A DNA stretch of 64,000 bases from a virus. A program made the translations under genes and the position numbers. The DNA lies in the UHGV virus genome UHGV-1351772. One strand, given 5' to 3'. Within the stretch, counting starts at the first letter, position 1. Each line of letters starts with the position of its first letter. Below, in pieces: positions 10,507-39,520 of the stretch. The notes under the pieces were generated by a model that saw only the letters and a list, made by a program, of their open reading frames with translations, was not told the origin of the DNA and searched no databases.

Positions 10507-11886
10507 TTAGCGCGTAAATGGCGAAGTTGCAAATCCACCGAAGCTGCTTTGCGGCTGTCCGCCAAAACTGCTATTCGTTGCAAATGCTGAACTCGTGCTA
10601 AACGCGCTAGTCCCTCCTACGTTCCCGCTAAAAGAATTATTCCCTCCGCCAAAGGTACTTGCCAAAGAACCTCCGGTATTCCCTACACCGAAGTTACTCT
10701 GACCACCGAAAGGTGACACCTTGCGCTCTCCACCAAACGCATCCACAACAGAAATTCGACTTACCATACCGTTGGCAGGGTTAGTTGTTCCGTGCTGCTC
10801 GGCGTAACGTTGCATCGCTGGCGTCAAATTCCCATAAGGACTATGCGTGGCCATGTTACGTTCACGTGCGCGGAAGAATTCCATCGGATCGGACTTATCT
10901 GCTTTATCTGCATCCGATGCACGTTTTTGTGGAATCTGCTGTGGTGCCTGTGCACGATCAATACGGAAATCATGCGCCGTGGTATCACGTTCAGGGCTGT
11001 CAGAACGTGGGCCGGTGTTATACGGTAAGGTCTGAATGACGTTATCGTAAATATCCATATTGTCCAGCTGAGAAATCCATTCATCTTCCAACGGACGTAA
11101 AGAAGTGTGGTCGCGCAATCCCTTAACGACGTTGTTATAGTTCACAACGTACTGCGCCCAACCACGCGCTAAGCAACCGAAATACGGACGCGAATCATTA
11201 GACCCCGTTACGCTCGGATACCAACCGAACACGGTGGTCAATAAACGATGGATAATGATTTTGTCTTGTTTACGTTGAAGCTTCGCAGAGAAGTACATTG
11301 CAGTACCATCTAACGATTCTTCTTCGAACATATTCCGATAATTAGCTACACGGTTAAACTTCACGCCGTCGATAACTAAATCAGACGCAATAAAAAGCTG
11401 GGTGATCTTGTGCTTTTTATCTTTTTCCAATTGTGCATAAACGAACGCCTTAACCGCTTCCCAGGATTTTACCAAACGTTCATCGAACGTCGGATCTTTC
11501 ATCCCTTCGCAAATCTGTTCTGTTAAGAATTTCTTGTAGGATGCAGAACGTACTGCTTTACCACTTGCCCCCGTTTCCAGAATCGCGTCGATTAATGCAA
11601 AGGAACGAATGAACAGGTTCGCATTAATGGATTTCTTCAGGAAACGAATTGTACCTGATTCACCTGCCAGTACCGATTCACACAGCGGATGAAATGCCTG
11701 ACATTCACGACCATCGTCGTCTTCCATGCCACGCTTAATCATCGCTGGGGTGGGAAGCGCCAAACGGCGCTTCACTTTGTTATACGTAAACTCTGCCGGT
11801 TCACCACCGTCACGAGTGAGTAAATCGTTTTCAAAATCGAATCCTTGTGATTTAAGAAACGATTTGTAGAATTCAATAATTTTCAT
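10507..11886 (-). CDS. hypothetical protein with ~85-aa Gly/Ser/Phe-rich (FG-repeat-like) C-terminal tail
   Basis: 459-aa ORF; C-terminus AFGG..PFGG..NFGVG..TFGGG..SFSG..SFGG..SFGGF is low-complexity and FG-rich. Confidence 0.6.
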   Translation of the reverse strand: MKIIEFYKSFLKSQGFDFENDLLTRDGGEPAEFTYNKVKRRLALPTPAMIKRGMEDDDGRECQAFHPLCESVLAGESGTIRFLKKSINANLFIRSFALIDAILETGASGKAVRSASYKKFLTEQICEGMKDPTFDERLVKSWEAVKAFVYAQLEKDKKHKITQLFIASDLVIDGVKFNRVANYRNMFEEESLDGTAMYFSAKLQRKQDKIIIHRLLTTVFGWYPSVTGSNDSRPYFGCLARGWAQYVVNYNNVVKGLRDHTSLRPLEDEWISQLDNMDIYDNVIQTLPYNTGPRSDSPERDTTAHDFRIDRAQAPQQIPQKRASDADKADKSDPMEFFRARERNMATHSPYGNLTPAMQRYAEQHGTTNPANGMVSRISVVDAFGGERKVSPFGGQSNFGVGNTGGSLASTFGGGNNSFSGNVGGTSAFSTSSAFATNSSFGGQPQSSFGGFATSPFTR

Positions 11887-11908
11887 TTAAGAGTCCTTGA
11901 TTAATCTT

Positions 11909-13615
11909 TTACTCGCCGAATGCACCAAAACCAGACACTGGCGCAGGAGTTGACATATCGCTGCCGCCAAAGCTACCGAAGCTACCCAGGCTCGTAGGTG
12001 CAGACACAGGGGCAGTTGGAATATTCGACAGGATATTCGAACGGTTCTGACCACGGTTGAATTCTTGGTACCCTTCTTCCACTTTATTCATCAGCTGCGC
12101 TGTTTCTGCAGCTAACTGGTTCGTGTACTGAAGGTCAGTTGTTGTACCACAATGCAGACGTGCTTTCATGAACGACGCATGAGTATAATACTCAGGCAGC
12201 TCACCATCGATTTCAATTTCAATACGTGAAACCACCCCGACGATACATGTTACGGTCATCTTACAACGAATACGGTTGTGTTTAGTCACTTGCAAGAATA
12301 CGCCTTGTAAGTCACTTAAGAAGCGACGCGCTAACACATCCGGTAATCCGTCTTCAGTTAATGCCCCAACGTTGTGTTTTGACACTTGCAGCAGAGGAGG
12401 TGTTGCAATATCCGCCATACGGTTATCGTAGAAGAAAGTCACTTCACCGATAAGGTTACGAGTGACCACAGGCCCCAGTAACATGGCTAAATCAAATGCC
12501 ACCAACGAACCCTGAGTAGAATAGTTATTACGTCCTACCCAATCATCGGTGCGTTCAATTTCACCAAAACCACGACGAGCCGCGACAGCCAGCGAGTGCG
12601 CAATTGCAGCGTCCACGTCTTCGGGATTAATCACCGCATTACGCAAGTCGCACAGTTTGAATGCTGCACGGTTCGCAACGTTCCAACCGCTAGTCATATC
12701 GGACGTGGCGTTGGATATGGCTGTTCTAAAAGCCTTCACCAACTCGTAACTGTTGAAATTACGCATCACACCGATCTGGCTAAGTTCAGATTCTACCCCA
12801 AGAGAATGATCTCCTGCGAAGAAACTGTCTACTGCGCTCAACTCCGTTTCAATCCCCATGGTATTAATGAAGGAATTGGAGATCGCTGTCACGAAAGATT
12901 CTGGTCGGGTTAATTGACTAGACATCAACTGTGGCGCACGCTGGCAATTAGCGGAGATAACGGTGTTGTTATCCAGCTCAATCTGCTCACCAGCTTTCAC
13001 CACTTTACGTACCATATCAGCTGCTTTCGCGGTAGAAATAACGTCAATGGTGTGCTCTACATAGCTGTCTGCGGTTAATGTCTTGGACAACACATAGTTG
13101 TCTATCAAACGGAAGGAATCCGGGTTGATACGACGTCCACCGAACGCATCAGTGATATACGTACATTGTAACCCGTATATTTCGTTGATATACAGAACCA
13201 TGTCGTCCGGCAGGTGATTAAACATGGATCGCTCTGCCTGGGACGTATACCCGGAAACAACATAACGCGTTTCCTGAGTCCGTGTGTCGTTTAACGAGTT
13301 CGAAACAATAATCGCCACGAAGTTATACACACCAGTATCGCGAGAATTATACGCAAATTGGATTGGTTGCGATTCGTTATCACTCACGTTAATGAATGGA
13401 CGTTCAATGCCTGTTGGGGTATTGTCGAAACCCACAATCTGCCCCAGGGCTTCTTGATAAGCCCGAGAACCTGTTGCTTTATCACCGTGTTCTGCAACCA
13501 CATCCACTAACTCATCCAAAGCGTGCTGCGATTCAAAGAACCCAATACGACGACGAATCTGCTCTGGGATTTCGTACACTGGATACATTTGTAGTTTCAA
13601 AAGTTTCATTGCCAT
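11909..13615 (-). CDS. hypothetical protein with FG-rich C-terminal tail
   Basis: 568-aa ORF ending ...SLGSFGSFGGSDMSTPAPVSGFGAFGE; adjacent to and co-directional with the previous FG-tail gene. Confidence 0.6.
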   Translation of the reverse strand: MAMKLLKLQMYPVYEIPEQIRRRIGFFESQHALDELVDVVAEHGDKATGSRAYQEALGQIVGFDNTPTGIERPFINVSDNESQPIQFAYNSRDTGVYNFVAIIVSNSLNDTRTQETRYVVSGYTSQAERSMFNHLPDDMVLYINEIYGLQCTYITDAFGGRRINPDSFRLIDNYVLSKTLTADSYVEHTIDVISTAKAADMVRKVVKAGEQIELDNNTVISANCQRAPQLMSSQLTRPESFVTAISNSFINTMGIETELSAVDSFFAGDHSLGVESELSQIGVMRNFNSYELVKAFRTAISNATSDMTSGWNVANRAAFKLCDLRNAVINPEDVDAAIAHSLAVAARRGFGEIERTDDWVGRNNYSTQGSLVAFDLAMLLGPVVTRNLIGEVTFFYDNRMADIATPPLLQVSKHNVGALTEDGLPDVLARRFLSDLQGVFLQVTKHNRIRCKMTVTCIVGVVSRIEIEIDGELPEYYTHASFMKARLHCGTTTDLQYTNQLAAETAQLMNKVEEGYQEFNRGQNRSNILSNIPTAPVSAPTSLGSFGSFGGSDMSTPAPVSGFGAFGE

Positions 13616-19801: not shown

Positions 19802-20086
19802 TTACCCCGCCAATTTTAATAATTCCGAGTCAAGCGCGATACCGGCTTCCAAGTCCTCTTCAGTATCCTGGAAGAAACTGTTTATGTTGCTGATATTCTC
19901 GTTATGGAGAATCATGCAACTCGAAACCTCGTCCACATTCGTGCTTGACATAAACCCGTTGTCTGGGCGATAAGCCATGCCCAGTTCCATTTCAATCTGG
20001 TCGATTGCCAATCTACATTGTAACTGGTCGCCATCGAAATCCTGTTTGTCCACTCCATTCCTTTTGGAGCAGGTGTGCAATGACAC
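19802..20086 (-). CDS. RNA polymerase beta-prime catalytic segment (DFDGDQ), probable exon 2 of the beta-prime N-terminal gene
   Basis: Translation begins VSLHTCSKRNGVDKQDFDGDQLQ, matching the universal NADFDGDQ Mg-binding motif; listed start is GTG and an in-frame TGA lies 5 codons upstream, so it is unlikely to be an independent gene. Confidence 0.5.
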   Translation of the reverse strand: MSLHTCSKRNGVDKQDFDGDQLQCRLAIDQIEMELGMAYRPDNGFMSSTNVDEVSSCMILHNENISNINSFFQDTEEDLEAGIALDSELLKLAG

Positions 20087-20445
20087 CCTCCCATGCTTTC
20101 ACATGGGCACAGACTATATCATAACCGTAGGTATTGCTACCCGTAGGTCTCCCCCACTTCGCCGCTAAACTAAGCAGCTACTCTACTCGGTTTTACCCTT
20201 TCGATAGTCGTTGAACGATTTTCATCGCTGCTGGTTATCCATTATCACAACCCTTAGCATTATTGGTTAGCATAGGTTATCTTACGAATTGTTTCTGACT
20301 TTCGCCACCCTGTCGGGATCGTAAGCTTTAGGGGTTTCCAGCAATTCGAGGGATACGCACTAGAGGTTTCCCGTCTAGTGGGCCAGTGTTTAGCATTAGG
20401 TGCTTTGATGACGCGATCAGAAATACGCAGAGAACATTGTGTTAC
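20084..20445 (-). other. group I self-splicing intron (ORF-less), boundaries approximate (+/- 20 nt)
   Basis: Minus-strand core elements in canonical order: P aattgctggaaa (20335..20346), Q aaccagcagc (20227..20236), R gttcaacgacta (20205..20216), S atgatatagtct (20111..20122), P9 hairpin cccatg-tgaaag-catggg (20090..20107), with a G before the exon-2 frame. Confidence 0.65.
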
Positions 20446-21759
20446 ATCTGTCAGTACCGCTGAGATGAACAATGTCTGAATAGAAAGTTGAACCAATGTT
20501 GGGTTACGCAGAACTTCCAACATTAAGCCGAATCCGCCGGGGGATTCTTTAATCAACTCATTAATAATTTCATGTACCAACGGTACATACTGCATTGCCG
20601 CAAATGCAATGATGCGCTCACATTGTCGAGGTGTATAATCACGTCGACCTAACTTGTTCTCAATGTGAACACTCGCCAACGGAACCAACCAACGCCAAGG
20701 CGCAATAACTTTCAACGCATCATGAGGTTCAGAGATAGGAGAGATAGTCACACGTCCGCCCCACGGTACGTGTGTTGACCCGAGTTTTGCCCGATAGAAC
20801 CCAGGTTTACCTTCCATCACTTCCTGACGATGGTCAATATAGAAATACGCAAGCTGTCGATTCGCTTTGATCGCACGACGAATAATAAATCGTGGTTCGA
20901 TACGGCGTGCATTCGTGTACAACAACGCCACATTTTTTACTGCGTCGATAGCGCTGGTATAAACCGGATCGATAAAAATACCTTGTCGGCGCTCCTCCGT
21001 AACGATCAGTTTTGATGAAATAATCGGAAGGTGTCTTGGAAAGAATGAGAACGATTGTTCCTGAAAGAACTCACGCCATTCTAAGCGCACGCGCTCACTC
21101 TCATAACGGTTATTTTTCGTTGGTGGATAAATCTCCTTCCAAGCTTCCGGAGACGTAAGGATATTAAAGACGGTTCGATGGTGGTCGATAAAGTTTCGAA
21201 TTCCCCGTTCGAAGCCATGTTCGCCGAGTATTCTTTTCACCACGCGAGCACGTGTTCCCTCGTCCTTTTCTGGATGGTAGTACGGATCGATTAGCCACAG
21301 CAGTAAATCAGACCCGCGTTCTACCGTCACTTTGTTACGATTAAATTTTTTCAGCTTAGAGCCAAAGAAGGCATTAAAGAGAGACCAAAAACGTGGATTG
21401 ATAAAGTTACCCATCTCATCGGGAGCGCGTAACCAGACATCAGACGTAATCCGATGTTCAGAAACAACATGTCCGCAATGTGGGCAACGAAGCCCAAGAT
21501 TATAACGATGGGTAATAGGTGATTCGCAGGTCAGACTGCAAATAGGAGCCGAGTTGAGTGTTTCATCAACGATTCGGTTTTGGAGTATTTGGTTAATCAT
21601 CTCCGACGCTTCGATGGTATCCATCGTTGCAGCAACGTCATTGATAATAATCGGTGGTTTGTAGCCTTTTTCCTCCGCTTCTTGTATACAGTCACGTAAC
21701 ATCTTGTCGTGACTAATTAGTCGCCCCGAAATCCCGTAATATTCTAGTTTATGTTCCAC
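20260..21759 (-). CDS. multisubunit RNA polymerase beta-prime subunit, N-terminal part (set A), exon 1; last ~55 codons are probably intron read-through
   Basis: Cys cluster CSLTCES...CPHCGH (zinc ribbon), GKPGFYRAKLGSTHVPWGGRVTISPI matching [27 protein letters not shown], and VLRNPTLVQLSIQTLF matching VLLNRAPTLHRLGIQAF; homology stops ~25 codons before the expected NADFDGD. Confidence 0.6.
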   Translation of the reverse strand: MEHKLEYYGISGRLISHDKMLRDCIQEAEEKGYKPPIIINDVAATMDTIEASEMINQILQNRIVDETLNSAPICSLTCESPITHRYNLGLRCPHCGHVVSEHRITSDVWLRAPDEMGNFINPRFWSLFNAFFGSKLKKFNRNKVTVERGSDLLLWLIDPYYHPEKDEGTRARVVKRILGEHGFERGIRNFIDHHRTVFNILTSPEAWKEIYPPTKNNRYESERVRLEWREFFQEQSFSFFPRHLPIISSKLIVTEERRQGIFIDPVYTSAIDAVKNVALLYTNARRIEPRFIIRRAIKANRQLAYFYIDHRQEVMEGKPGFYRAKLGSTHVPWGGRVTISPISEPHDALKVIAPWRWLVPLASVHIENKLGRRDYTPRQCERIIAFAAMQYVPLVHEIINELIKESPGGFGLMLEVLRNPTLVQLSIQTLFISAVLTDVTQCSLRISDRVIKAPNAKHWPTRRETSSAYPSNCWKPLKLTIPTGWRKSETIRKITYANQ

Positions 21760-32622: not shown

Positions 32623-33003
32623 TCACTGCAACATATTCTTCAAATGACATGCCGTTCCTGTCGTCCACGCCACCCCATTACGGATGTTTTCAGGTTGTGC
32701 ATTCACCAATCTGCGTAGGCTAATGATATTCTCCGCAGGTCCCGCAATCGGTAACGTGTAGGGTACCGTCATTTCAGCCATATACTGAACGACATCTTCA
32801 AACCCTTCCGGTACAGACCAATCAATCACACTACCTTCTGGAATATCGTTGTATCGCGTGTTTTTATACTCGCCGGGGTGCATCACAAAACCCCATTCCA
32901 GAGACGAAAGCAGCTTCTCGTCAAGCTGGCTCCGAATCTTAATTTTACTCAATGCGTCCGGATGCACCAAAATCACGTCCAGTGGACGCAGTGTAGTATT
33001 CAT
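32623..33003 (-). CDS. hypothetical protein (126 aa)
   Basis: Minus-strand ORF. Confidence 0.5.
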   Translation of the reverse strand: MNTTLRPLDVILVHPDALSKIKIRSQLDEKLLSSLEWGFVMHPGEYKNTRYNDIPEGSVIDWSVPEGFEDVVQYMAEMTVPYTLPIAGPAENIISLRRLVNAQPENIRNGVAWTTGTACHLKNMLQ

Positions 33004-33022
33004 TTTTCTCTCCCACTATAAC

Positions 33023-33427
33023 TCAATGGATATTTGACAGCTTATTGGTTGCCTGGTACTGGAAACTGTATACCGCATCCAATAACACAGAGAAAGCTTC
33101 AACTAACGGTATCTGTTGACGTTTTACCCCGTTGGCTAATTCGCTCATAAACGAATTAACTAGTTTCGGAGTAATCGCATGGACTTCCGTTCGGGTAAGG
33201 TGGTAATTCGTACGTATTACCGGAACCTCATCGTTTAGTAGCAAAGCAGGTTCGTCAATGGATTTCATTTCAGTCAACCATGCTTTAAACTCGGGGTGAT
33301 TTGCCAGTATAGGTAAGAGCGTATACAGAATCAAATCGTCTAAACGACTGCGAACTAAAATCCGTTCTGGAAAGATGTTGTTCTCTAACAAACTATAAAA
33401 ATCGTAATGTGGTTCTTCGATGTTCAC
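33023..33427 (-). CDS. hypothetical protein (134 aa)
   Basis: Minus-strand ORF. Confidence 0.5.
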   Translation of the reverse strand: MNIEEPHYDFYSLLENNIFPERILVRSRLDDLILYTLLPILANHPEFKAWLTEMKSIDEPALLLNDEVPVIRTNYHLTRTEVHAITPKLVNSFMSELANGVKRQQIPLVEAFSVLLDAVYSFQYQATNKLSNIH

Positions 33428-33463
33428 GGTACCACCTCCTATAAATACATACCAGTACCGTAA

Positions 33464-33494
33464 AAATCAAAAAAAATGGGGACGTATAGTCCCC
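33464..33494 (-). terminator. intrinsic terminator
   Basis: ggggac-gtata-gtcccc hairpin followed on the minus strand by ATTTTTTTTG. Confidence 0.6.
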
Positions 33495-33521
33495 TAATCA
33501 CCCTCTATAGCTGATTTATAG

Positions 33522-33962
33522 TTATAGTAGCTCTACGGCATGACGCTCGTGGTAAAGCTCCGCCAACTGTTTCGTTTTAATCCGTAATTCGCCTCGGTCG
33601 TAAACTAATACCCGACCTGCGCCGTTTGTTCCTAACTCTGTGTAAAGTGCTAACCCGTACCGTCTTACAAATTCAATAGCTGGAAACGTAAATTCTTCGT
33701 CATCACAACGAAACACCAACATACACCACGGGCTCGGGTTTAAGTGCTTACGTTCTTTCCCATCCGCCCACCGTAAACTAAATTCATTTCGATTACGATT
33801 CAGCACCCGCTCAACAAATCGTTCTACTAACTTACCAGTCGGTCCATCTTTGGGTAGTGCTTGCCACACCGAGAAACGGCGTGACAAAAACGGTCGAATC
33901 ACCGCTGCTTCATCAAACGAATACCCCAAACACATCAAACCCTCAATGGCATCTATTTTCAT
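33522..33962 (-). CDS. hypothetical protein (146 aa)
   Basis: Minus-strand ORF; a weaker promoter-motif copy (acatctatctctaaaaattt, 34021..34040) lies upstream. Confidence 0.5.
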   Translation of the reverse strand: MKIDAIEGLMCLGYSFDEAAVIRPFLSRRFSVWQALPKDGPTGKLVERFVERVLNRNRNEFSLRWADGKERKHLNPSPWCMLVFRCDDEEFTFPAIEFVRRYGLALYTELGTNGAGRVLVYDRGELRIKTKQLAELYHERHAVELL

Positions 33963-34187
33963 TTTACCTGCTCCTAAAAAGTCGAATTAAAACGCTTAGT
34001 ACCAACGTTCATACAGGTAACATCTATCTCTAAAAATTTGCGATAAAAAAAGAATATACCTACCCCCTTTCGGAGGTAGGTACGTTCCCTGTCATCGGCA
34101 ATGAAACTACAGGATTAAAACCCTTCAGGGCATGAGAATGGGCGTTCTCGAAGGGTGGGCTTTTAGCTTTCGGCGGAGCTAAACTGG

Positions 34188-34835
34188 TTATCGGAGAGTA
34201 TCAATGGTTTTACCTTCATTGTTCATGATGTAAACCACATCCCCTGGATAGAAAAATTCGTAAGCATCATCGACGTGTAAAACACCGATCGCCTCGTCAA
34301 CCGAATGCTTACCACTACGGAGCTGATTCTGATAGAAGGTATCGCCATCTTCGTTGATCAACTCACGGATTAATTGGATTTCTTGAGGTGGCATCACATA
34401 CGTCATTTCACGCTGTGTAAAGCCACAAAACCGGCAATAGAAATTATTGCCAGGAATATAAATTTCGTCGACTGGCGAATTCTTTTCTTCGACGGACGGC
34501 ATACGCGGGTTAACGATCACCACACGTGGCACATCCTCTGGAATAGGTCGACCACCGATGACAACGGTCCAATTTGACACATTGTGCAAAAACGGATGCA
34601 GGTTGGCTAAGGTGCTTTTCTGTTCCTCTACGGACATATCAGTTAAAGCTGTATAACCCACCGGTTTCGGTTTTCTCGGCAAATCAATCGCGTTATCAAA
34701 ACACAATTCATTATCTTCGCCATTGGCGACTTTAAGTGCTTCTTTGTAAACACGGGACATTTTGTCACCCAAACGTACACGTTCGTGAACAGTGATGACA
34801 CGGTCGCCGTTAATAACACGTTTTACTGTAAGCAT
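34188..34835 (-). CDS. hypothetical protein (215 aa)
   Basis: Minus-strand ORF downstream of the 545-bp gene-free region. Confidence 0.5.
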   Translation of the reverse strand: MLTVKRVINGDRVITVHERVRLGDKMSRVYKEALKVANGEDNELCFDNAIDLPRKPKPVGYTALTDMSVEEQKSTLANLHPFLHNVSNWTVVIGGRPIPEDVPRVVIVNPRMPSVEEKNSPVDEIYIPGNNFYCRFCGFTQREMTYVMPPQEIQLIRELINEDGDTFYQNQLRSGKHSVDEAIGVLHVDDAYEFFYPGDVVYIMNNEGKTIDTLR

Positions 34836-35379
34836 TTCTGTTACCTCGTACTGTTACTACTACTCGTTCTGTTGTACGTCGCTATACCCCGACGTGTGGG
34901 TTAATGGGACGCGTTGACGTCTGATGAGGCGCAGCAGGCAGTGGCAGCAATGACAGCAAGGGCAGCAATGGTACAAACGCCAACGCGAATAAAAAACGCT
35001 ACTGATCAAATAAAACGACAAGGAAAGTATGAGAAACAAAGACCAGTACCGTCGAGTTAACGCGTAACTCTCAATTCACATTACAGGGTATTCACGTTGC
35101 ACTTAGGGGAAATACCCAGTAATTAAATTCTTGGTGGGAGTAGGTGGGAGGATACCCTCCCACCGTACCACCGTTTCGGCAGTCGTGCTACCAGGACCCT
35201 ACGGCCCTAAACGTAAGTCCGAACTTAATCGGTAGGTGTTTACACGTTTTTAAGGAGCTTTCTACCCGTGAGCAAGAGCAGAAAATATCAGAGCAGGCGT
35301 AACTCAGTTGAAGGCTGACGGGAAAATCTACCCAACATACGTCTGTTCTAATTAGGTTAGTGGGCCGAAGCCCACTGTT

Positions 35380-35640
35380 TTAGCCGTATAGGTAATCAGT
35401 GTAAAGAACCTCCCCCTCAGGATAGTGCGTTGTACCGAGGAGTGTGGCTTCGAGGGTAACCTCTTCCACATCACCATCCGATAACAACTCGCCAGTCCAA
35501 CCTATTTCGGATGGAAGAATTGCACATGCAGCTTCTTCCGTAGGGGCTGCCACAATCATTGCGGAATATTCATCCCAACCAACGTGGTCGGTTCTTTCTA
35601 CTAGATACAAGTTCATAATTTTCTCCCACAGATAACACAT
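35380..35640 (-). CDS. hypothetical acidic protein (86 aa)
   Basis: Small ORF directly downstream of the tRNA. Confidence 0.4.
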   Translation of the reverse strand: MCYLWEKIMNLYLVERTDHVGWDEYSAMIVAAPTEEAACAILPSEIGWTGELLSDGDVEEVTLEATLLGTTHYPEGEVLYTDYLYG

Positions 35641-35680
35641 CTCGTTTTCTGTGTTGAGAATGAACTTACTGGCTAAAATC

Positions 35681-35756
35681 TGGCGGGGGTGGGAAGTTTC
35701 GAACTCCCAACCTTCGGTTTTGGAGACCGCTGCACCACCAATTGTGCTACACCCCC
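35681..35756 (-). tRNA. tRNA-Trp (anticodon CCA), 76 nt with encoded CCA
   Basis: Hand-folded cloverleaf from the reverse complement: acceptor GGGGGTG/CACCCCC, D-stem GCAC/GTGC, anticodon loop CUCCAAA (U33, CCA, A37), T-arm GGGAG-TTCGAAA-CTTCC; anticodon and T arms nearly identical to E. coli tRNA-Trp. Confidence 0.8.
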
Positions 35757-35763
35757 TAATACA

Positions 35764-36264
35764 TCAAAACAGCTTAAGTGTTTGCGTTTGACCACCGCTG
35801 TACAGGTCGTAACGTTTCGCCACTTCCACCGCAGTGGGGGCGTCAACGCCAGCACCTAATGCACCCAGGGCATAGTGAGCACCTGAGCCTATCGCATACG
35901 GCGGCTCTACAAACACGTAACTGGCGTATTTGTTGTCTTTGCACTTCGAGGCGTCGATAACGCGTCCGTCTGTCAAAACAGCAAGTACGATAAAATCAAT
36001 CTGCTCGGGATACGTCGTTTCGAATCTAACTCCACCCCGTTCGATACCGCCGAAACGTTCAAGCGTGAGTTCTTGGCGCACGGATTGCAATGCGGCGACA
36101 TCACCTGCCAAACCGATCGCTTTCACGTCTTCACCCAAAAGCTTCCACGACGTACCCTCAGGCGGCGTGTGAATCTTACGGTATTGCGTGGCAGCACTAC
36201 GTTCTTCCACGGTGACTTGACCGTCGCAAGCTAACGTCTTTCCGTCGAAAACAATCGTGGTCAT
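35764..36264 (-). CDS. hslV: HslV-like Ntn-hydrolase peptidase (proteasome beta-type)
   Basis: MTTIVFDGKTLACDGQVT vs E. coli HslV [22 protein letters not shown] (catalytic Thr after Met); KAIGLAGDVA vs KVIAGFAGGTA; YAIGSGAHYALGALGAG vs IAIGSGGPYAQAAARAL; length 166 aa vs 176 aa. Confidence 0.7.
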   Translation of the reverse strand: MTTIVFDGKTLACDGQVTVEERSAATQYRKIHTPPEGTSWKLLGEDVKAIGLAGDVAALQSVRQELTLERFGGIERGGVRFETTYPEQIDFIVLAVLTDGRVIDASKCKDNKYASYVFVEPPYAIGSGAHYALGALGAGVDAPTAVEVAKRYDLYSGGQTQTLKLF

Positions 36265-36626
36265 GACAGATTTCCTAACTCATTGCCGACCTCCTGGTCA
36301 GCAGCTACCATCGAATTCGTGCAACGCGTAACATGTTCACGAATCGCTCGAGCCAAACCTTCACGAACGGCTACCAGGAGACACTCTCGATAGCTCGGAT
36401 AATGCGCAATAGGGCTAGGGATGTGTTCCACGCAATAACCATCGTGAACTTCCACCACTACCGTGATGTAAATCTCGACGGGTTGGTAAATCCGCACGCT
36501 CTTGATCAAATCAAGTAACGCTGGCTCCGTGCATCCCCAGTCCTCCGGGGCTTTTAACAGCACTGCCAACTCATCGAGCCTGTACTGAACATCCAATTCC
36601 ACGTTAGTGGTGTTTTTGGAATCCAT
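36261..36626 (-). CDS. hypothetical protein (start refined to ATG at 36626)
   Basis: Track start at 36710 is TTG; the ATG at 36626 has SD aggag 8 nt upstream; stop overlaps the hslV-like start (ATGA). Confidence 0.5.
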   Translation of the reverse strand: MDSKNTTNVELDVQYRLDELAVLLKAPEDWGCTEPALLDLIKSVRIYQPVEIYITVVVEVHDGYCVEHIPSPIAHYPSYRECLLVAVREGLARAIREHVTRCTNSMVAADQEVGNELGNLS

Positions 36627-37518
36627 ATTAAAATCTCCTGTCGTGGTCTGTGTCACACCAACAGGAAATCCTGTAAAAAAATAATTCAGCTGCGTACCGG
36701 CGTTTCTCAACGGGAGTACGCACCCCTCTCGTCTTTGCGAGCCGTCAAGCTAGAGGACATCACACTGCCAGCGCTACCTGGAGCAGGGTCATTCGACGCA
36801 ACGTCGTAATTCGCATTTTGGCCGCACCTCTGGGAGCGTATCCCACCGTCGGCTGCCCGCAGGTAAGTTCTACGGACCTTTCGCCAACGTCGCTCCCAGA
36901 GGCTGCCACGGTTCACTCGGATTTTCTCATGTGGTCCACGCGTCACTGATAGCGCGGGTTCCCCAACACTCGTAAGTCGGGGAACGGTACCGAGCACCTG
37001 AACTCTGGGGATTCCAAAAATCCCTCGGGGTAAGTACGATTCGCAAATCGATTTTCAAACCCCATAGTAAAACAAACTCCAGTGTTAGGCTGAACGTTTT
37101 GTTTTTCCCAGTACACGGCGAAATAAATTCCATGCACTCGAAAAAACAACCCCCAAACCAACACCCGGTCAGGGGGCTTCGAGCTCTGCTGAATCTTCGC
37201 AGACAGAAATCGTGTTTGAGCTGTGAGCAGTAAACTCCTGAACTCCGAAAAATCTTCGTGGTTGGATTTGTAAATCATCCCACGCAAATCCTCCGAACAT
37301 ACCATAGGGTTTTAACGTTCGAAAAAGGGGAATGGGTTTTACCCCCCTCGGTCAGGTGTTCAGGGTAGACCCCCTACCCGATCCCCCAGGTGGGGATTTT
37401 ACCCTGGTGAATTACCCCGGGTTCGATTTTCGGATTTTCTGGAAAATACCGCTCACCGATCCCTACCCCCTCAGGGGGGTCAGACCGAGATCAGATCTCA
37501 TAATAAGGATCGCGCGCG

Positions 37519-37680
37519 TTTTATATATATTTATATATAATATATATTATATATAATAATTATTATATTAATAAATATATTAATATATTTATTTAAATAA
37601 ATAATTAAATAATACCTAAAGGTATTATTATTTTGATCCTAAAGGAATAATATATTTATAAATAAATATATTATACTATA
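37519..37680. other. ~160-bp almost pure A+T core: candidate DNA-unwinding element of a replication origin
   Basis: Only a handful of G/C across 37519..37680, with internal inverted repeat aataatacc-taaa-ggtattatt, inside a 1.65-kb gene-free island. Confidence 0.5.
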
Positions 37681-37700
37681 CGCGCGTGCGTACGCACGCG
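37681..37700. repeat. alternating purine-pyrimidine CG palindrome (cruciform/Z-DNA-prone)
   Basis: cgcgcgtgcgtacgcacgcg: perfect 18-bp palindrome cgcgtgcgtacgcacgcg inside a fully alternating 20-mer, abutting the AT core; a shorter gatcgcgcgcg sits on the other flank (37508..37518). Confidence 0.6.
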
Positions 37701-38361
37701 TATAAGGAAGAGATCTTGAGATCAGATTTTTGAGAGAGTTAAAAATTTAAGATCGATCCGAGAGACTTAGTGTCTCTCGAAGAGTATTAAAAAATTTAAA
37801 AGATCAAAAAACCAAAGCTAGAGAACTACTCAACCTGAATCTTCAGTGTGTGAAGATTCAGTAAGTTGATCAATCCAGCTGATCCGCTAGTACGCGAAGC
37901 GTGAATGTTTTTTTGATCGTCGCGGCGGCCGGTCCGCCGACCCGAGGGTGGGGTGGAACTGGTCGAGGGGAATGCCCCTCAGGCGCTCTCAATCGCGCTG
38001 TAACGAGTTAAACGGGGTTCTGGTACCCAAGTGTACCCCTTGAGGAGATTTTTGCGTCAAAATGCGTTCTAGAGCGTTTTACGATGGGGTGGGTTTTCGA
38101 CCCACTCAGGGATAGGGGTTGGCGTGACAGCTCGAACGACAAAATCGTGGTTTCATGGCGTTGAGTGAAAATAAATTCAAAACCCACAACCAAAAACACC
38201 CTCAAATTCTTCGTAGGAAGCTCTCTGACGAGATAAACGTGGGTAAGGGGTACGAACGTACCGCCTGGAAAGAAAAATGCGTTAGAATCGCTCTCAGCGC
38301 GTTTTTGATTTTTGGGCAAAAAAATAAAACGGGGGAGACTTCGGTCTCCCCAGAATATTTT

Positions 38362-39486
38362 TTACAGAGTCGTCAGTTCTTTTGACGGATAGTACAGTTT
38401 CACATCGACCAAACTGTAACCGGTGGCGTAGAACACCTGATTTCCGACCGAAGCAATAAACCCTTCAGGGTCGATAACGTCAACCGAGAAATCGGAATCG
38501 AATAGCCAGGTTTCTTGTTCCCCTTCCCGTTCGAAAACGGCAGCGTAACGCCCGTATTCTGGGCCTCGGCGGAAACGAAACAGCGTTAATCCTGTCTCAC
38601 GTTCTAAGCCATAAATCACCCCATTTTCTTCGTAGATTTCAGCGCGATTACAGCGTGTAACCGTCAACAACGCAGGCCGTTGTGTCGGGATTGTTTTAAA
38701 CGGTGAAGGCCCATCGTATGTCGTTGAAACCCAATCACCGAGACTGTCTAACGCCAGTGCTCGATACGCGATAGGTGACTTGTAGTTACACAACCTGTTG
38801 CCCTCGGTGTACATCGTGTATTCGATGCGTAACGTAGTACCGATGATGTCGTTCAAACTCAGTTTGTAGTGCGCTAACTGGGCTTGTATACGACAGGACA
38901 GAATTGTACACAGGAAAGTGTGACCCTCTGTAGAACGGCACACAACTCCGTAATCGGTCACTGCCAGTAACGTGGCATCTGTTTTACGGACGGGTTCCAG
39001 GCGAAACACCTCATTTTCAGTTTCTACGAGGAACTGCGAAACCGCTTGGTTTCTGGATTTAGCTTTAATCGTATCGAACACATCACCCGCTTTTACGATT
39101 AACGGTTCTACCACGTTTACCTGAAACGGCAGCGGTTTAGTTGGGTATTGTCCCAACGTTGTAATCGTTACTGAGTTGAGTTCTGGGTCCGATGCGTCAG
39201 GATCACCAGACAACCAATACGTTAGCCATTTCGACAACGTCTGGGGAATGACGCGCGTGGTGTAAAACAGAATTTCGCCATGTAAACCTGCCTCTGCCAA
39301 TTCGCGTGCAAGAAACGAGTTGACCGCGTCGTAGGTACCGTTGCGCAAGATGTCCATACCCCCGACACGAACCAAATCACAAATTACGCCGTGTGGAAGA
39401 ACCCACATTTTGACGTTTTGATTTCGGTCGATGGTACCTTCGCGCAGCATTCTGTGCCAAACGGGTTTACGTAAGTAATTTCTCAT
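38362..39486 (-). CDS. hypothetical protein (374 aa)
   Basis: Minus-strand ORF, first gene after promoter motif d. Confidence 0.55.
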   Translation of the reverse strand: MRNYLRKPVWHRMLREGTIDRNQNVKMWVLPHGVICDLVRVGGMDILRNGTYDAVNSFLARELAEAGLHGEILFYTTRVIPQTLSKWLTYWLSGDPDASDPELNSVTITTLGQYPTKPLPFQVNVVEPLIVKAGDVFDTIKAKSRNQAVSQFLVETENEVFRLEPVRKTDATLLAVTDYGVVCRSTEGHTFLCTILSCRIQAQLAHYKLSLNDIIGTTLRIEYTMYTEGNRLCNYKSPIAYRALALDSLGDWVSTTYDGPSPFKTIPTQRPALLTVTRCNRAEIYEENGVIYGLERETGLTLFRFRRGPEYGRYAAVFEREGEQETWLFDSDFSVDVIDPEGFIASVGNQVFYATGYSLVDVKLYYPSKELTTL

Positions 39487-39520
39487 TTTAAAACTCCTTT
39501 AGGTAGAATAAGACTCTCAC

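What the first reader, a model, noticed from the sequence alone, without database searches (positions are those of the whole stretch)
35681..36264. Phage-encoded HslV-like peptidase with no HslU partner, co-transcribed with a tRNA-Trp
The 166-aa protein aligns with bacterial HslV along its whole length, including the N-terminal catalytic threonine (MTTIV) and the GSG loop. No AAA+ HslU-like gene is adjacent, so it might pair with host HslU/ClpY, act alone, or act as a decoy for the host protease. Its stop is followed within 8 bp by a tRNA-Trp on the same strand; the upstream promoter lies in the origin-like island.
Basis: partly seen in the sequence, partly recalled or inferred. Interest (0 to 1): 0.6.

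Follow-up and report, generated by a model that had tools for sequence, protein, structure and literature searches.

The report
Partnerless proteasome-like peptidase gene in jumbo phage
A giant bacteriophage carries a small, well-conserved gene for a stripped-down relative of the bacterial HslV/proteasome protease, with no matching ATPase anywhere in a close relative's genome; the gene family is already annotated in related phages but has never been studied, so this is a real but fairly ordinary new member.

Summary
ORF 35764-36264(-) encodes 166 aa starting MTTIV, and a tRNA-Trp(CCA) at 35681-35756(-) follows the stop after 7 nt.

All catalytic positions (Thr1, Asp17, Lys33, Gly, GSG, Asp166/Ser169 equivalents) are invariant or nearly so in 76 diverse members. 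HslV helix 2, part of the HslU-tail pocket, is missing.

No HslU-like gene occurs in the window, in a complete 221,873-bp relative, or within 10 kb of 52 viral family members. Seoulvirus cousins carry a distant HslU-like gene that can be deleted while the peptidase gene stays.

Most likely it is a catalytically active Thr-peptidase without a cognate phage ATPase; its substrate is unknown. A decoy role is disfavoured. Co-transcription with the tRNA is plausible but not shown.

It is a new member of a known, annotated but uncharacterised kind.

The parts
35764..36264 (-). Gene for a 166-aa proteasome-beta/HslV-type N-terminal-threonine peptidase of phage family PHROG 1040. Catalytic equivalents in gene numbering: T2 (Thr1), D14 (Asp17), K30 (Lys33), G51/G54, G126-S127-G128, D153, S156, G157. 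Lineage-specific insertions lie at residues 35-45, 70-82 and 107-110.
35681..35756 (-). tRNA-Trp (anticodon CCA), 7 nt downstream of the peptidase stop codon. This slot is polymorphic: some close relatives carry an unrelated tRNA-Ile(AAT) here.
36261..36626 (-). Upstream ORF, 121 aa from ATG 36626 with an AGGAG Shine-Dalgarno sequence (the mechanical ORF runs to TTG 36710). Its stop overlaps the peptidase start as ATGA, which suggests translational coupling. It matches no known family. Its N-terminus is conserved and its C-terminal half diverged in relatives.
35380..35640 (-). Small downstream ORF (phrog_5444). The likely start is the MNLYL methionine at 35616, giving 78 aa. It is 51% identical to the gene that follows tRNA-Trp in Seoulvirus SPLA1a, so the order ORF / peptidase / tRNA-Trp / small ORF is conserved.
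35359..35376 (-). GC-rich hairpin GUGGGC-UUCG-GCCCAC just after the small ORF. It may mark the 3' end of the transcription unit, but it has no U-tract and the fold is not statistically exceptional (z -1.77).
38332..38351 (-). Terminator-like hairpin (8 bp, 6 GC, followed by a T-run) that ends the upstream gene 38362-39486. It sets the upstream limit of the transcription unit that holds the peptidase gene.
36711..38331 (.). A 1.6-kb stretch without a convincing gene, containing an extremely AT-rich block at about 37520-37710 (GC 0.22 over 37500-37799). Any promoter for the unit must lie here, but none was identified.

Best explanation
The gene encodes a functional, minimal member of the proteasome-beta / HslV superfamily of N-terminal-threonine (Ntn) peptidases. 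It belongs to a very large family, found here in phage records and viral contigs, of about 140-aa proteins (PHROG 1040).

Shown here:
- The gene is under purifying selection.
- The protein starts Met-Thr-Thr with no propeptide.
- It adopts the proteasome-beta fold.
- It keeps every catalytic position of the proteasome/HslV active site.
- It lacks the segment that corresponds to HslV helix 2.
- No HslU-like ATPase is encoded in the window, in a complete close relative, or next to 52 other viral members of the family.

Inferred:
- Host methionine aminopeptidase removes Met1 and exposes Thr as the nucleophile, as in HslV.
- The protein self-assembles into rings.
- It works as a peptidase that needs no cognate phage ATPase. 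It would cleave peptides or loosely folded host or phage proteins during infection, and its substrate is unknown.
- It is expressed from a small unit made of the 121-aa ORF, the peptidase gene, tRNA-Trp and the 78-aa ORF. RNase P cleavage at the tRNA 5' end would define the 3' end of the peptidase mRNA.
For: Family and homology:
- PHROG 1040 'peptidase HslV family' matches at E 1.5e-35 over residues 1-165.
- A family profile hits solved HslV structures (E 1e-8 to 1e-6), archaeal 20S beta (8e-7) and BPH (1.3e-6).
- hhalign of 76 family members against E. coli HslV gives probability 97.6%, E 3.9e-12. It aligns T1, D17, K33, AGFAG and AIGSG.
- 53 of the 76 members match Pfam PF00227 Proteasome.

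Structure:
- The AlphaFold model has pLDDT 84.7 and pTM 0.83.
- Every Foldseek PDB hit listed (the best 50 of 58 at E <= 0.001) is a proteasome, Anbu or HslV chain.

Conservation:
- T2, D14, K30, G54, G126, G128 and D153 are invariant in 76 members. S127 and G157 are at least 90% conserved, and position 156 is usually Thr (52 of 76; Ser in this protein).
- 75 of the 76 members start Met-Thr, and 74 start MTT.
- Third-position bias of substitutions is 30 of 33.

Absence of a partner:
- tblastn and phmmer with E. coli HslU and the Seoulvirus HslU-like protein find nothing in the window or in the complete 221,873-bp relative NZ_CP173450.1, whose peptidase is 97% identical.
- None of 52 viral loci has an HslU-like ORF within 10 kb.
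- Seoulvirus SPLA1a keeps the peptidase gene and tRNA-Trp although its HslU-like gene is reduced to a 75-aa remnant.

Family size: 7,370 cluster representatives at E <= 1e-10; 136 of the 150 best are 134-169 aa long.
Against: - No biochemical data exist for any member of this family in the literature I could search.
- Isolated bacterial HslV is only weakly active without HslU (established knowledge), so a partnerless core may need some activator.
- The whole-genome absence of HslU was tested on a relative (84% nucleotide identity over 33000-39500, 93-96% in the gene itself), not on the window's own complete genome.
- A non-HslU unfoldase, from the host or an unrecognised phage protein, is not excluded.
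- The transcription unit and the RNase P processing step are inferred from gene spacing only.
Confidence: 0.6

Rival explanations
1. The phage peptidase docks onto the host's HslU (ClpY) unfoldase. It would replace or compete with host HslV and so redirect ATP-dependent degradation during infection.
For: The lineage occurs in assemblies of E. coli, Salmonella, Shigella and Enterobacter, and E. coli K-12 encodes hslU. The first five residues, MTTIV, are identical to those of E. coli HslV, and the closest sequence-profile matches among solved structures are HslVs. No phage HslU is present in this lineage.
Against: About 20 HslV residues (roughly 79-98, helix 2) have no counterpart in the family. 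This segment holds Lys80, which PMC6429459 suggests may hydrogen-bond the HslU C-terminal tail. The pocket positions that paper names, 54 and 57, are not conserved in my reading of the hhalign alignment. The protein scores 12.7 bits against a 137-bit HslV cutoff. Structurally it is no closer to HslV than to BPH, which has no known ATPase partner.
Confidence: 0.2
2. It acts as a catalytically irrelevant decoy or poison subunit that titrates host HslU or co-assembles with host HslV to shut down the host protease.
For: Only the general resemblance to HslV and the lack of a phage partner.
Against: A decoy would not need its active site. Yet T2, D14, K30, G54, G126, G128 and D153 are invariant, and S127 and G157 are at least 90% conserved, across 76 members that are only about 30% identical overall. 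The HslU-docking helix region is the part that has been lost.
Confidence: 0.04
3. It works with an unrecognised phage-encoded partner. One candidate is the translationally coupled 121-aa upstream protein, acting as regulator, cap or substrate adaptor. Another is a non-HslU ATPase encoded elsewhere in the genome.
For: The upstream ORF overlaps the peptidase start by ATGA here. A different upstream gene does the same in Seoulvirus SPLA1a. Some cousins encode an HslU-like protein about 100 kb away, which is nuclear-localised in Erwinia phage RAY (bioRxiv 10.1101/2023.02.24.529968).
Against: The upstream ORFs of this phage and of SPLA1a are not detectably homologous. Recombination breakpoints lie flush with the peptidase ORF, so the upstream gene is exchanged independently. 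No neighbour family is shared across diverse viral loci except the terminase or portal genes of the adjacent module. Only one classical GxxGxGK[ST] motif occurs among the ORFs of the 222-kb relative and the window, with flanks (GGNGCGKTSLL) that I judge unlike an AAA+ unfoldase; that ORF was not searched against any family. The SPLA3 HslU-like protein ends ...HAWTENA rather than with the hydrophobic ...SRFIL tail of E. coli HslU.
Confidence: 0.1
4. It is an Ntn hydrolase with a non-proteolytic or non-degradative chemistry, for example a connectase-like transpeptidase or ligase, or an amidase acting on a small molecule.
Confidence: 0.06

Closest known systems
'Peptidase HslV family' proteins of jumbo phages (PHROG 1040), e.g. 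Salmonella phage SPLA1a WNT47432.1, SPN3US, Pseudomonas phage EL, and Erwinia phages Asesino, Huxley and phiEaH2
   Same: Same family (PHROG E 1.5e-35; tblastn 30-39% identity over 93-100% of the query in the 40 of 59 records listed). Similar size and an MTT start. The local gene order is the same: terminase large subunit, two genes, about 1.7 kb of non-coding DNA, a small ORF, the peptidase, tRNA-Trp, then a phrog_5444 ORF.
   Different: Only about 35% identical. This lineage (222-228 kb, seen as circular 'plasmids' and contigs in enterobacterial assemblies) has no HslU-like gene, whereas SPLA3 and many Erwinia phages have one. In some close relatives the tRNA slot holds tRNA-Ile(AAT).
Bacterial HslV (ClpQ), the peptidase core of the HslUV ATP-dependent protease (MEROPS T1B; TIGR03692 / NF003964)
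   Different: It scores far below the curated HslV cutoffs (12.7 against 137 bits). It lacks the helix-2 segment at about residues 79-98. It keeps a proteasome-like D-x-x-S-G-G motif where E. coli HslV has GDICIYTN. No hslU lies adjacent or elsewhere in the genome.
BPH and Anbu, bacterial proteasome homologues without a known ATPase partner
   Different: The sequence-profile match is weaker than to HslV (BPH 1.3e-6 against HslV 1e-8). The phage proteins are much shorter (about 140-166 aa against 185-240) and were found here in phage records and viral contigs. Ring symmetry is unknown.
HslU-like AAA+ proteins of Chimalliviridae (Erwinia phage RAY gp116; SPLA3 WNT47929.1, 586 aa)
   Same: They occur in some of the phage groups that carry the HslV-family gene, and could in principle be its partner.
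   Different: They are encoded about 100 kb away from the peptidase gene. They are an accessory gene that can be deleted while the peptidase gene is kept (SPLA1a). They are absent from this lineage. Their C-terminus does not resemble the HslV-activating tail of E. coli HslU.

Membership tests
HslV (ClpQ) proper: NCBIfam TIGR03692 / NF003964, MEROPS T1B | Score above the curated equivalog cutoff of the HslV models | tested here: not met
   12.7-12.8 bits against cutoffs of 137 and 157.75, E 0.07, and only residues 10-33 matched.
HslV (ClpQ) proper | Catalytic Thr directly after the initiator Met, with no propeptide | tested here: met
   The ORF starts MTTIV and an in-frame stop lies just upstream. 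75 of 76 family members start Met-Thr, 74 of them MTT. The 148-, 191- and 203-aa variants in databases differ only in the called start; the 148-aa call was checked in the DNA and is an artefact.
HslV (ClpQ) proper | Active-site residues Asp17, Lys33, the Gly45/48 loop and Ser124 in AIGSG | tested here: met
   hhalign pairs D14, K30, IGLAG and AIGSG with their HslV counterparts. These positions are invariant or at least 90% conserved in 76 members.
HslV (ClpQ) proper | Full collinearity including helix 2 (about residues 79-98), which contributes to the pocket for the HslU C-terminal tail (Lys80) | tested here: not met
   About 20 HslV residues are unaligned in the profile-profile alignment. The model has three helices (56-66, 129-137, 142-152), and residues 67-90 form a low-confidence loop and strand. 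The suggested role of Lys80 comes from PMC6429459.
HslV (ClpQ) proper | A cognate hslU gene, in an operon or elsewhere in the genome | tested here: not met
   Nothing is found in the window or in the complete 221,873-bp relative, by tblastn at E < 1 or by phmmer at E < 10. None lies within 10 kb of 52 viral family members.
HslV (ClpQ) proper | Dodecamer of two hexameric rings, with peptidase activity stimulated by HslU and ATP | not testable with these tools
   This needs purified protein or multimer modelling; only a monomer model without coordinates was available.
Proteasome-beta-type Ntn hydrolase superfamily (Pfam PF00227, MEROPS T1) | Four-layer alpha-beta-beta-alpha Ntn fold of proteasome subunits | tested here: met
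Proteasome-beta-type Ntn hydrolase superfamily (Pfam PF00227, MEROPS T1) | Direct significant match of this protein to PF00227 | tested here: not met
   No Pfam family matches even at E <= 1.
Proteasome-beta-type Ntn hydrolase superfamily (Pfam PF00227, MEROPS T1) | Homology shown through relatives or profiles, and the Asp166 / Ser169 / Gly170 motif | tested here: met
   53 of 76 family members hit PF00227, best E 1.7e-9. The family profile hits HslV, 20S beta and BPH chains. The D153-L-Y-S156-G157-G158 motif is conserved.
PHROG 1040 'peptidase HslV family' (phage proteins) | Significant full-length match to the family profile | tested here: met
   E 1.5e-35, 124 bits, residues 1-165. 59 phage records hold homologues covering at least 80% of the query.
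BPH (beta-proteobacterial proteasome homologue) | Heptameric double ring and BPH-specific sequence cluster | tested here: inconclusive

The most novel reading that the evidence does not exclude
The 'mini-HslV' proteins (about 140 aa, lacking helix 2, with the full proteasome catalytic set) form a distinct, very large phage clade of proteasome homologues. They would work without any AAA+ unfoldase and have a specific role in infection, for example cleaving a host defence or quality-control protein, or processing a phage protein. That would make them a fourth kind of partnerless bacterial-world proteasome relative beside Anbu and BPH, and the smallest known.
Probability: 0.3. Interest if true: 0.6.

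Novelty: new member of a known kind. Interest (0 to 1): 0.3.

Why it matters
For this window, the result is an annotation fix. The gene can be named a proteasome-beta/HslV-family Thr-peptidase (PHROG 1040), not HslV, and it should not be assumed to form an HslUV protease.

More broadly, the family is large (7,370 cluster representatives at E <= 1e-10), and the 59 phage records, 51 viral contigs and one phage-like contig examined here all place it in phages. In this set it has no linked HslU-like gene, and I found no functional study of it. A biochemical and structural study of one member would show how small a proteasome-type protease can be. It would also show whether such a protease needs an unfoldase. 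The HslV/HslU presence-absence pattern among nucleus-forming jumbo phages offers natural genetic contrasts for that work.

None of this would greatly surprise a specialist, because related jumbo-phage genomes already carry the 'peptidase HslV family' label.

Tried and rejected
- Single-sequence searches against Pfam, PDB and PADLOC gave nothing useful. NCBIfam gave only a marginal 24-residue match.
- The top PDB profile hits were designer pentatricopeptide repeat proteins. I rejected them as repeat artefacts: no single stretch was significant, and each 25-aa stretch scored about 5-6 bits.
- Megablast of the locus against the phage collection found no near relative. Relatives turned up instead as 'plasmids' of E. 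coli and Enterobacter.
- I suspected that the 160-aa gene beside the SPLA3 HslU-like gene was a second HslV paralogue, because PMC7823757 lists 'HslV at ORF 1 and 116'. Its sequence has no MTT start and no GSG motif, so I rejected this.
- I asked whether the 148-aa database variants lacking Thr1 mean the gene is decaying. They do not: the MTTIV codons are intact in the DNA, and the short call is a gene-caller artefact.
- I looked for a conserved neighbour that might be a partner. Only terminase large subunit (8 of about 22 diverse loci, several of them related) and portal genes recur. I read this as a module-boundary position, not a functional link.
- tRNA adjacency is not a family-wide feature. 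It occurs only in this lineage, in Seoulvirus and in one locus with a tRNA array.
- The search for related loci with the 76-sequence alignment failed for lack of a conserved stretch.
- Two scripts failed on a missing file.
- The JSS1_004 paper was irrelevant; it mentions only the host hslVU genes.
- A scan of IMG/VR for HslU-like genes returned none on the four contigs of this lineage. Only the best 80 of 313 hits were listed, so this is weak support.

Full report
**1. What is in the sequence.**

The minus strand carries an ORF at 35764-36264 encoding 166 aa (MTTIVFDGKTLACDGQ...AIGSGAHYALGA...YDLYSGGQTQTLKLF). A tRNA-Trp (CCA) lies at 35681-35756 on the same strand. Both ARAGORN and Rfam find it, the latter at 60.6 bits against a gathering score of 29.

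- The stop codon is at 35764-35766, so 7 nt separate it from the tRNA.
- The ATG overlaps the stop of an upstream ORF as ATGA. That ORF most plausibly starts at ATG 36626, which has an AGGAG Shine-Dalgarno sequence, giving 121 aa.
- Downstream of the tRNA lies a small ORF of family phrog_5444, followed by a GC hairpin.
- A strong terminator-like hairpin at 38351-38332(-) ends the preceding gene. Any promoter must therefore lie in the 1.6-kb gene-poor stretch 36711-38331, which holds a roughly 190-bp block of very low GC.
- No promoter could be assigned. The sigma-70 scan found fewer sites than the shuffles (3 against 4.6). The phage encodes phiKZ-type multisubunit RNA polymerases.

**2. The gene is real.**

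I compared it with five relatives: the E. coli 98232 'plasmid' and four IMG/VR contigs of 151-225 kb. Substitutions fall overwhelmingly at third codon positions. Against L003, for example, 30 of 33 differences are third-position, none are second-position, and 27 changed codons are synonymous against 5 non-synonymous.

**3. What the protein is.**

Direct searches do not place it.

- Pfam returns nothing, even at E <= 1.
- PDB phmmer finds nothing relevant.
- The curated HslV models give 12.7 bits against cutoffs of 137 and 158.

The phage library does place it: PHROG 1040, 'peptidase HslV family', at E 1.5e-35 over residues 1-165.

- A profile of eight homologues hits solved HslVs (1e-8 to 1e-6), archaeal 20S beta (8e-7) and BPH (1.3e-6). 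The higher-ranked PPR hits are repeat artefacts.
- A 76-member family profile aligns with E. coli HslV at 97.6% probability, E 3.9e-12.
- 53 of those 76 members hit Pfam PF00227.
- Every Foldseek PDB hit listed (the best 50 of 58 at E <= 0.001) is a proteasome, Anbu or HslV chain.

The protein is therefore a proteasome-beta-type Ntn hydrolase. By sequence it is nearest to HslV. By structure it is equidistant from HslV, BPH and 20S beta.

**4. Active site and what is missing.**

In 76 members that share only about 30% identity, T2, D14, K30, G54, G126, G128, A132 and D153 are invariant. S127, G157 and P86 are at least 90% conserved, and position 156 is usually Thr (52 of 76; Ser in this protein). 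By the HslV alignment, and by my own knowledge of proteasome numbering, these correspond to Thr1, Asp17, Lys33, the Gly loop, Ser129/Gly130, and Asp166/Ser169/Gly170. 75 of the 76 members start Met-Thr, 74 of them MTT, so there is no propeptide.

The family core is about 140 aa. This protein has three lineage-specific insertions, at residues 35-45, 70-82 and 107-110.

Relative to HslV, about 20 residues (roughly 79-98, helix 2) have no counterpart. The model shows only three helices. PMC6429459 names HslV positions 54, 57 and 114 as accommodating the HslU C-terminal tail, and suggests that Lys80 can hydrogen-bond it. Part of the canonical HslU docking site is therefore probably absent; this is an inference.

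**5. The partner question.**

- tblastn and phmmer with E. coli HslU and a 586-aa phage HslU-like protein find nothing in the window. They also find nothing in the complete, circular 221,873-bp relative NZ_CP173450.1, which I fetched whole and whose peptidase is 97% identical.
- Among 52 viral loci carrying family members, none has an HslU-like ORF within 10 kb.
- Some Chimalliviridae cousins (Seoulvirus SPLA3, Salmonella phages MET_P1_082_240 and 1252, and many Erwinia phages) do encode an HslU-like AAA+ protein about 100 kb from their HslV-family gene. In Erwinia phage RAY this accessory protein, gp116, localises to the phage nucleus (bioRxiv 10.1101/2023.02.24.529968).
- The two genes are not tied together. 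Seoulvirus SPLA1a and Escherichia phage EC001 retain only the first 73 residues' worth of the HslU-like gene (a 75-aa remnant ORF in SPLA1a). SPLA1a nevertheless keeps an intact HslV-family gene followed by tRNA-Trp.
- The SPLA3 HslU-like protein ends ...HAWTENA. It does not end with the hydrophobic tail (...SRFIL) that activates HslV in E. coli (the role of the tail is from PMC6429459).

**6. Context.**

The window is from a phiKZ-like jumbo phage. It encodes several split RNA polymerase beta-type subunits, a terminase large subunit, a tail sheath and a family B DNA polymerase.

Local synteny with Seoulvirus is conserved. The order is terminase large subunit, two genes, about 1.7 kb without genes, a small ORF, the peptidase, tRNA-Trp, then a phrog_5444 ORF that is 51% identical between the two phages. 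The two tRNA-Trp genes are clearly similar to each other.

Within the lineage the peptidase ORF is bounded by recombination breakpoints.

- Upstream, the neighbouring ORF keeps its N-terminus but has a divergent C-terminal half.
- Downstream, the cassette is either tRNA-Trp plus the small ORF, or an unrelated tRNA-Ile(AAT).

Outside the jumbo phages the family gene is not tRNA-linked. It often sits at the edge of the packaging module, next to the terminase large subunit or the portal gene.

**7. Interpretation.**

The conserved active site argues for an enzyme, not a decoy. The missing helix 2, the family-wide lack of a linked ATPase, and the independent loss of the HslU-like gene in cousins point the same way. 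Together they suggest a peptidase that does not depend on a cognate phage unfoldase. Use of host HslU or some other activator cannot be excluded. The substrate and the biological role remain unknown. Co-transcription with the tRNA is plausible from the 7-nt spacing and the conserved order, but it is not demonstrated.

**8. Novelty.**

Homologues are already labelled 'peptidase HslV family' in RefSeq and PHROG. A paper on Salmonella jumbo phage pSal-SNUABM-04 had already reported predicted HslV genes (ORFs 1 and 116) with no HslU subunit detected (PMC7823757). My tblastn nevertheless matches 99% of the SPLA3 HslU-like protein at 106144-107871 of that record, under a gene annotated 'putative DnaA protein'.

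I found no functional study of any member. BFVD lists many phage proteins with this fold, mostly labelled 'uncharacterized'.

This is a new member of a known, uncharacterised kind.

Noticed in passing
window 20090-20407 (-), between ORFs 19802-20086 and 20260-21759: A group I intron (Rfam RF00028, 56.9 bits, full-length model) interrupts a phage RNA polymerase beta-subunit gene. The two flanking ORFs match positions 1-417 and 412-477 of phrog_2987. The E. coli 'plasmid' relative has what appears to be the corresponding gene uninterrupted, 535 aa at 135630-137237; I judged the correspondence from size and gene order, not from an alignment.
   Followed up: partly
window 36711-38331, AT-rich core about 37520-37710: A 1.6-kb stretch has no convincing gene. 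It contains a roughly 190-bp block of almost pure A/T (GC 0.22 over 37500-37799), with CG-rich near-palindromes on either side (cgcgtgcgtacgcacgcgcg and aacgcgcgcg). A gene-free gap of similar size sits at the same place in the E. coli relative (151405-153492) and in Seoulvirus SPLA1a (10640-12394). Several published relatives' records begin at or within about 1.6 kb upstream of the HslV-family gene. The region could be an origin, a packaging or terminus region, or an early-promoter region; I did not test this.
   Followed up: partly
window 35380-35756 (-); L003 5480-5556; L011, L012, L014: The slot after the peptidase gene is polymorphic among phages whose peptidase genes are 93-96% identical at the nucleotide level (97-98% at the protein level). 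It holds either tRNA-Trp(CCA) plus a 78-aa ORF (the window, L013, L063) or an unrelated tRNA-Ile with the unusual anticodon AAT (the E. coli 98232 plasmid and 3 of 4 IMG/VR contigs). The breakpoints lie flush with the peptidase stop codon.
   Followed up: partly
whole window; NZ_CP173450.1 and NZ_CP134650.1: This phiKZ-like jumbo phage lineage has no near relative in the phage collection. It appears instead as complete circular 222-kb 'plasmids' of a clinical E. coli isolate and of an Enterobacter ludwigii isolate. Its peptidase cluster has 400 member sequences from Salmonella, Shigella and E. coli assemblies and from metagenomes, and the listed contigs reach 222-228 kb. This suggests a carrier state or plasmid-like persistence of a jumbo phage in Enterobacteriaceae isolates.
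   Followed up: partly
L062 (SPLA1a 115654-115881) compared with L004 (SPLA3 115433-117193): Within the genus Seoulvirus the HslU-like AAA+ gene is full length in some phages (586 aa in SPLA3, MET_P1_082_240 and 1252). In others (SPLA1a, EC001) it is reduced to a 75-aa N-terminal remnant, apparently by a deletion of about 2.9 kb that also removes two downstream genes. I inferred the deletion from gene sizes and order in the two annotations.
   Followed up: yes
L016, L017, L018, L023, L024, L057-L059; L030-L061: In smaller phage contigs the mini-HslV gene often lies directly beside the terminase large-subunit gene; in L017 the gap is 3 nt. A related 216-aa subfamily that hits Pfam Proteasome sits between a metallophosphoesterase gene and an SPP1-type portal gene.
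   Followed up: partly
P0001, P0002 and cluster members; L063 1447-1947: Public gene calls for this protein vary in length (148, 166, 179, 191 and 203 aa), differing at the N-terminus. The 148-aa calls skip the catalytic Thr, although the MTTIV codons are intact in the DNA (checked in L063). In the window an in-frame stop just upstream rules out an extension, so the longer calls are probably artefacts too. The calls therefore hide the Ntn-hydrolase signature.
   Followed up: yes
window 36261-36626 (-) and L003: The upstream 121-aa ORF, apparently translationally coupled through its ATGA overlap with the peptidase start, has a conserved N-terminal half (MDSK...YRLDEL..LLKAPE.WGC) and a strongly diverged C-terminal half between relatives. 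It matches nothing in Pfam, PHROG or PADLOC.
   Followed up: partly
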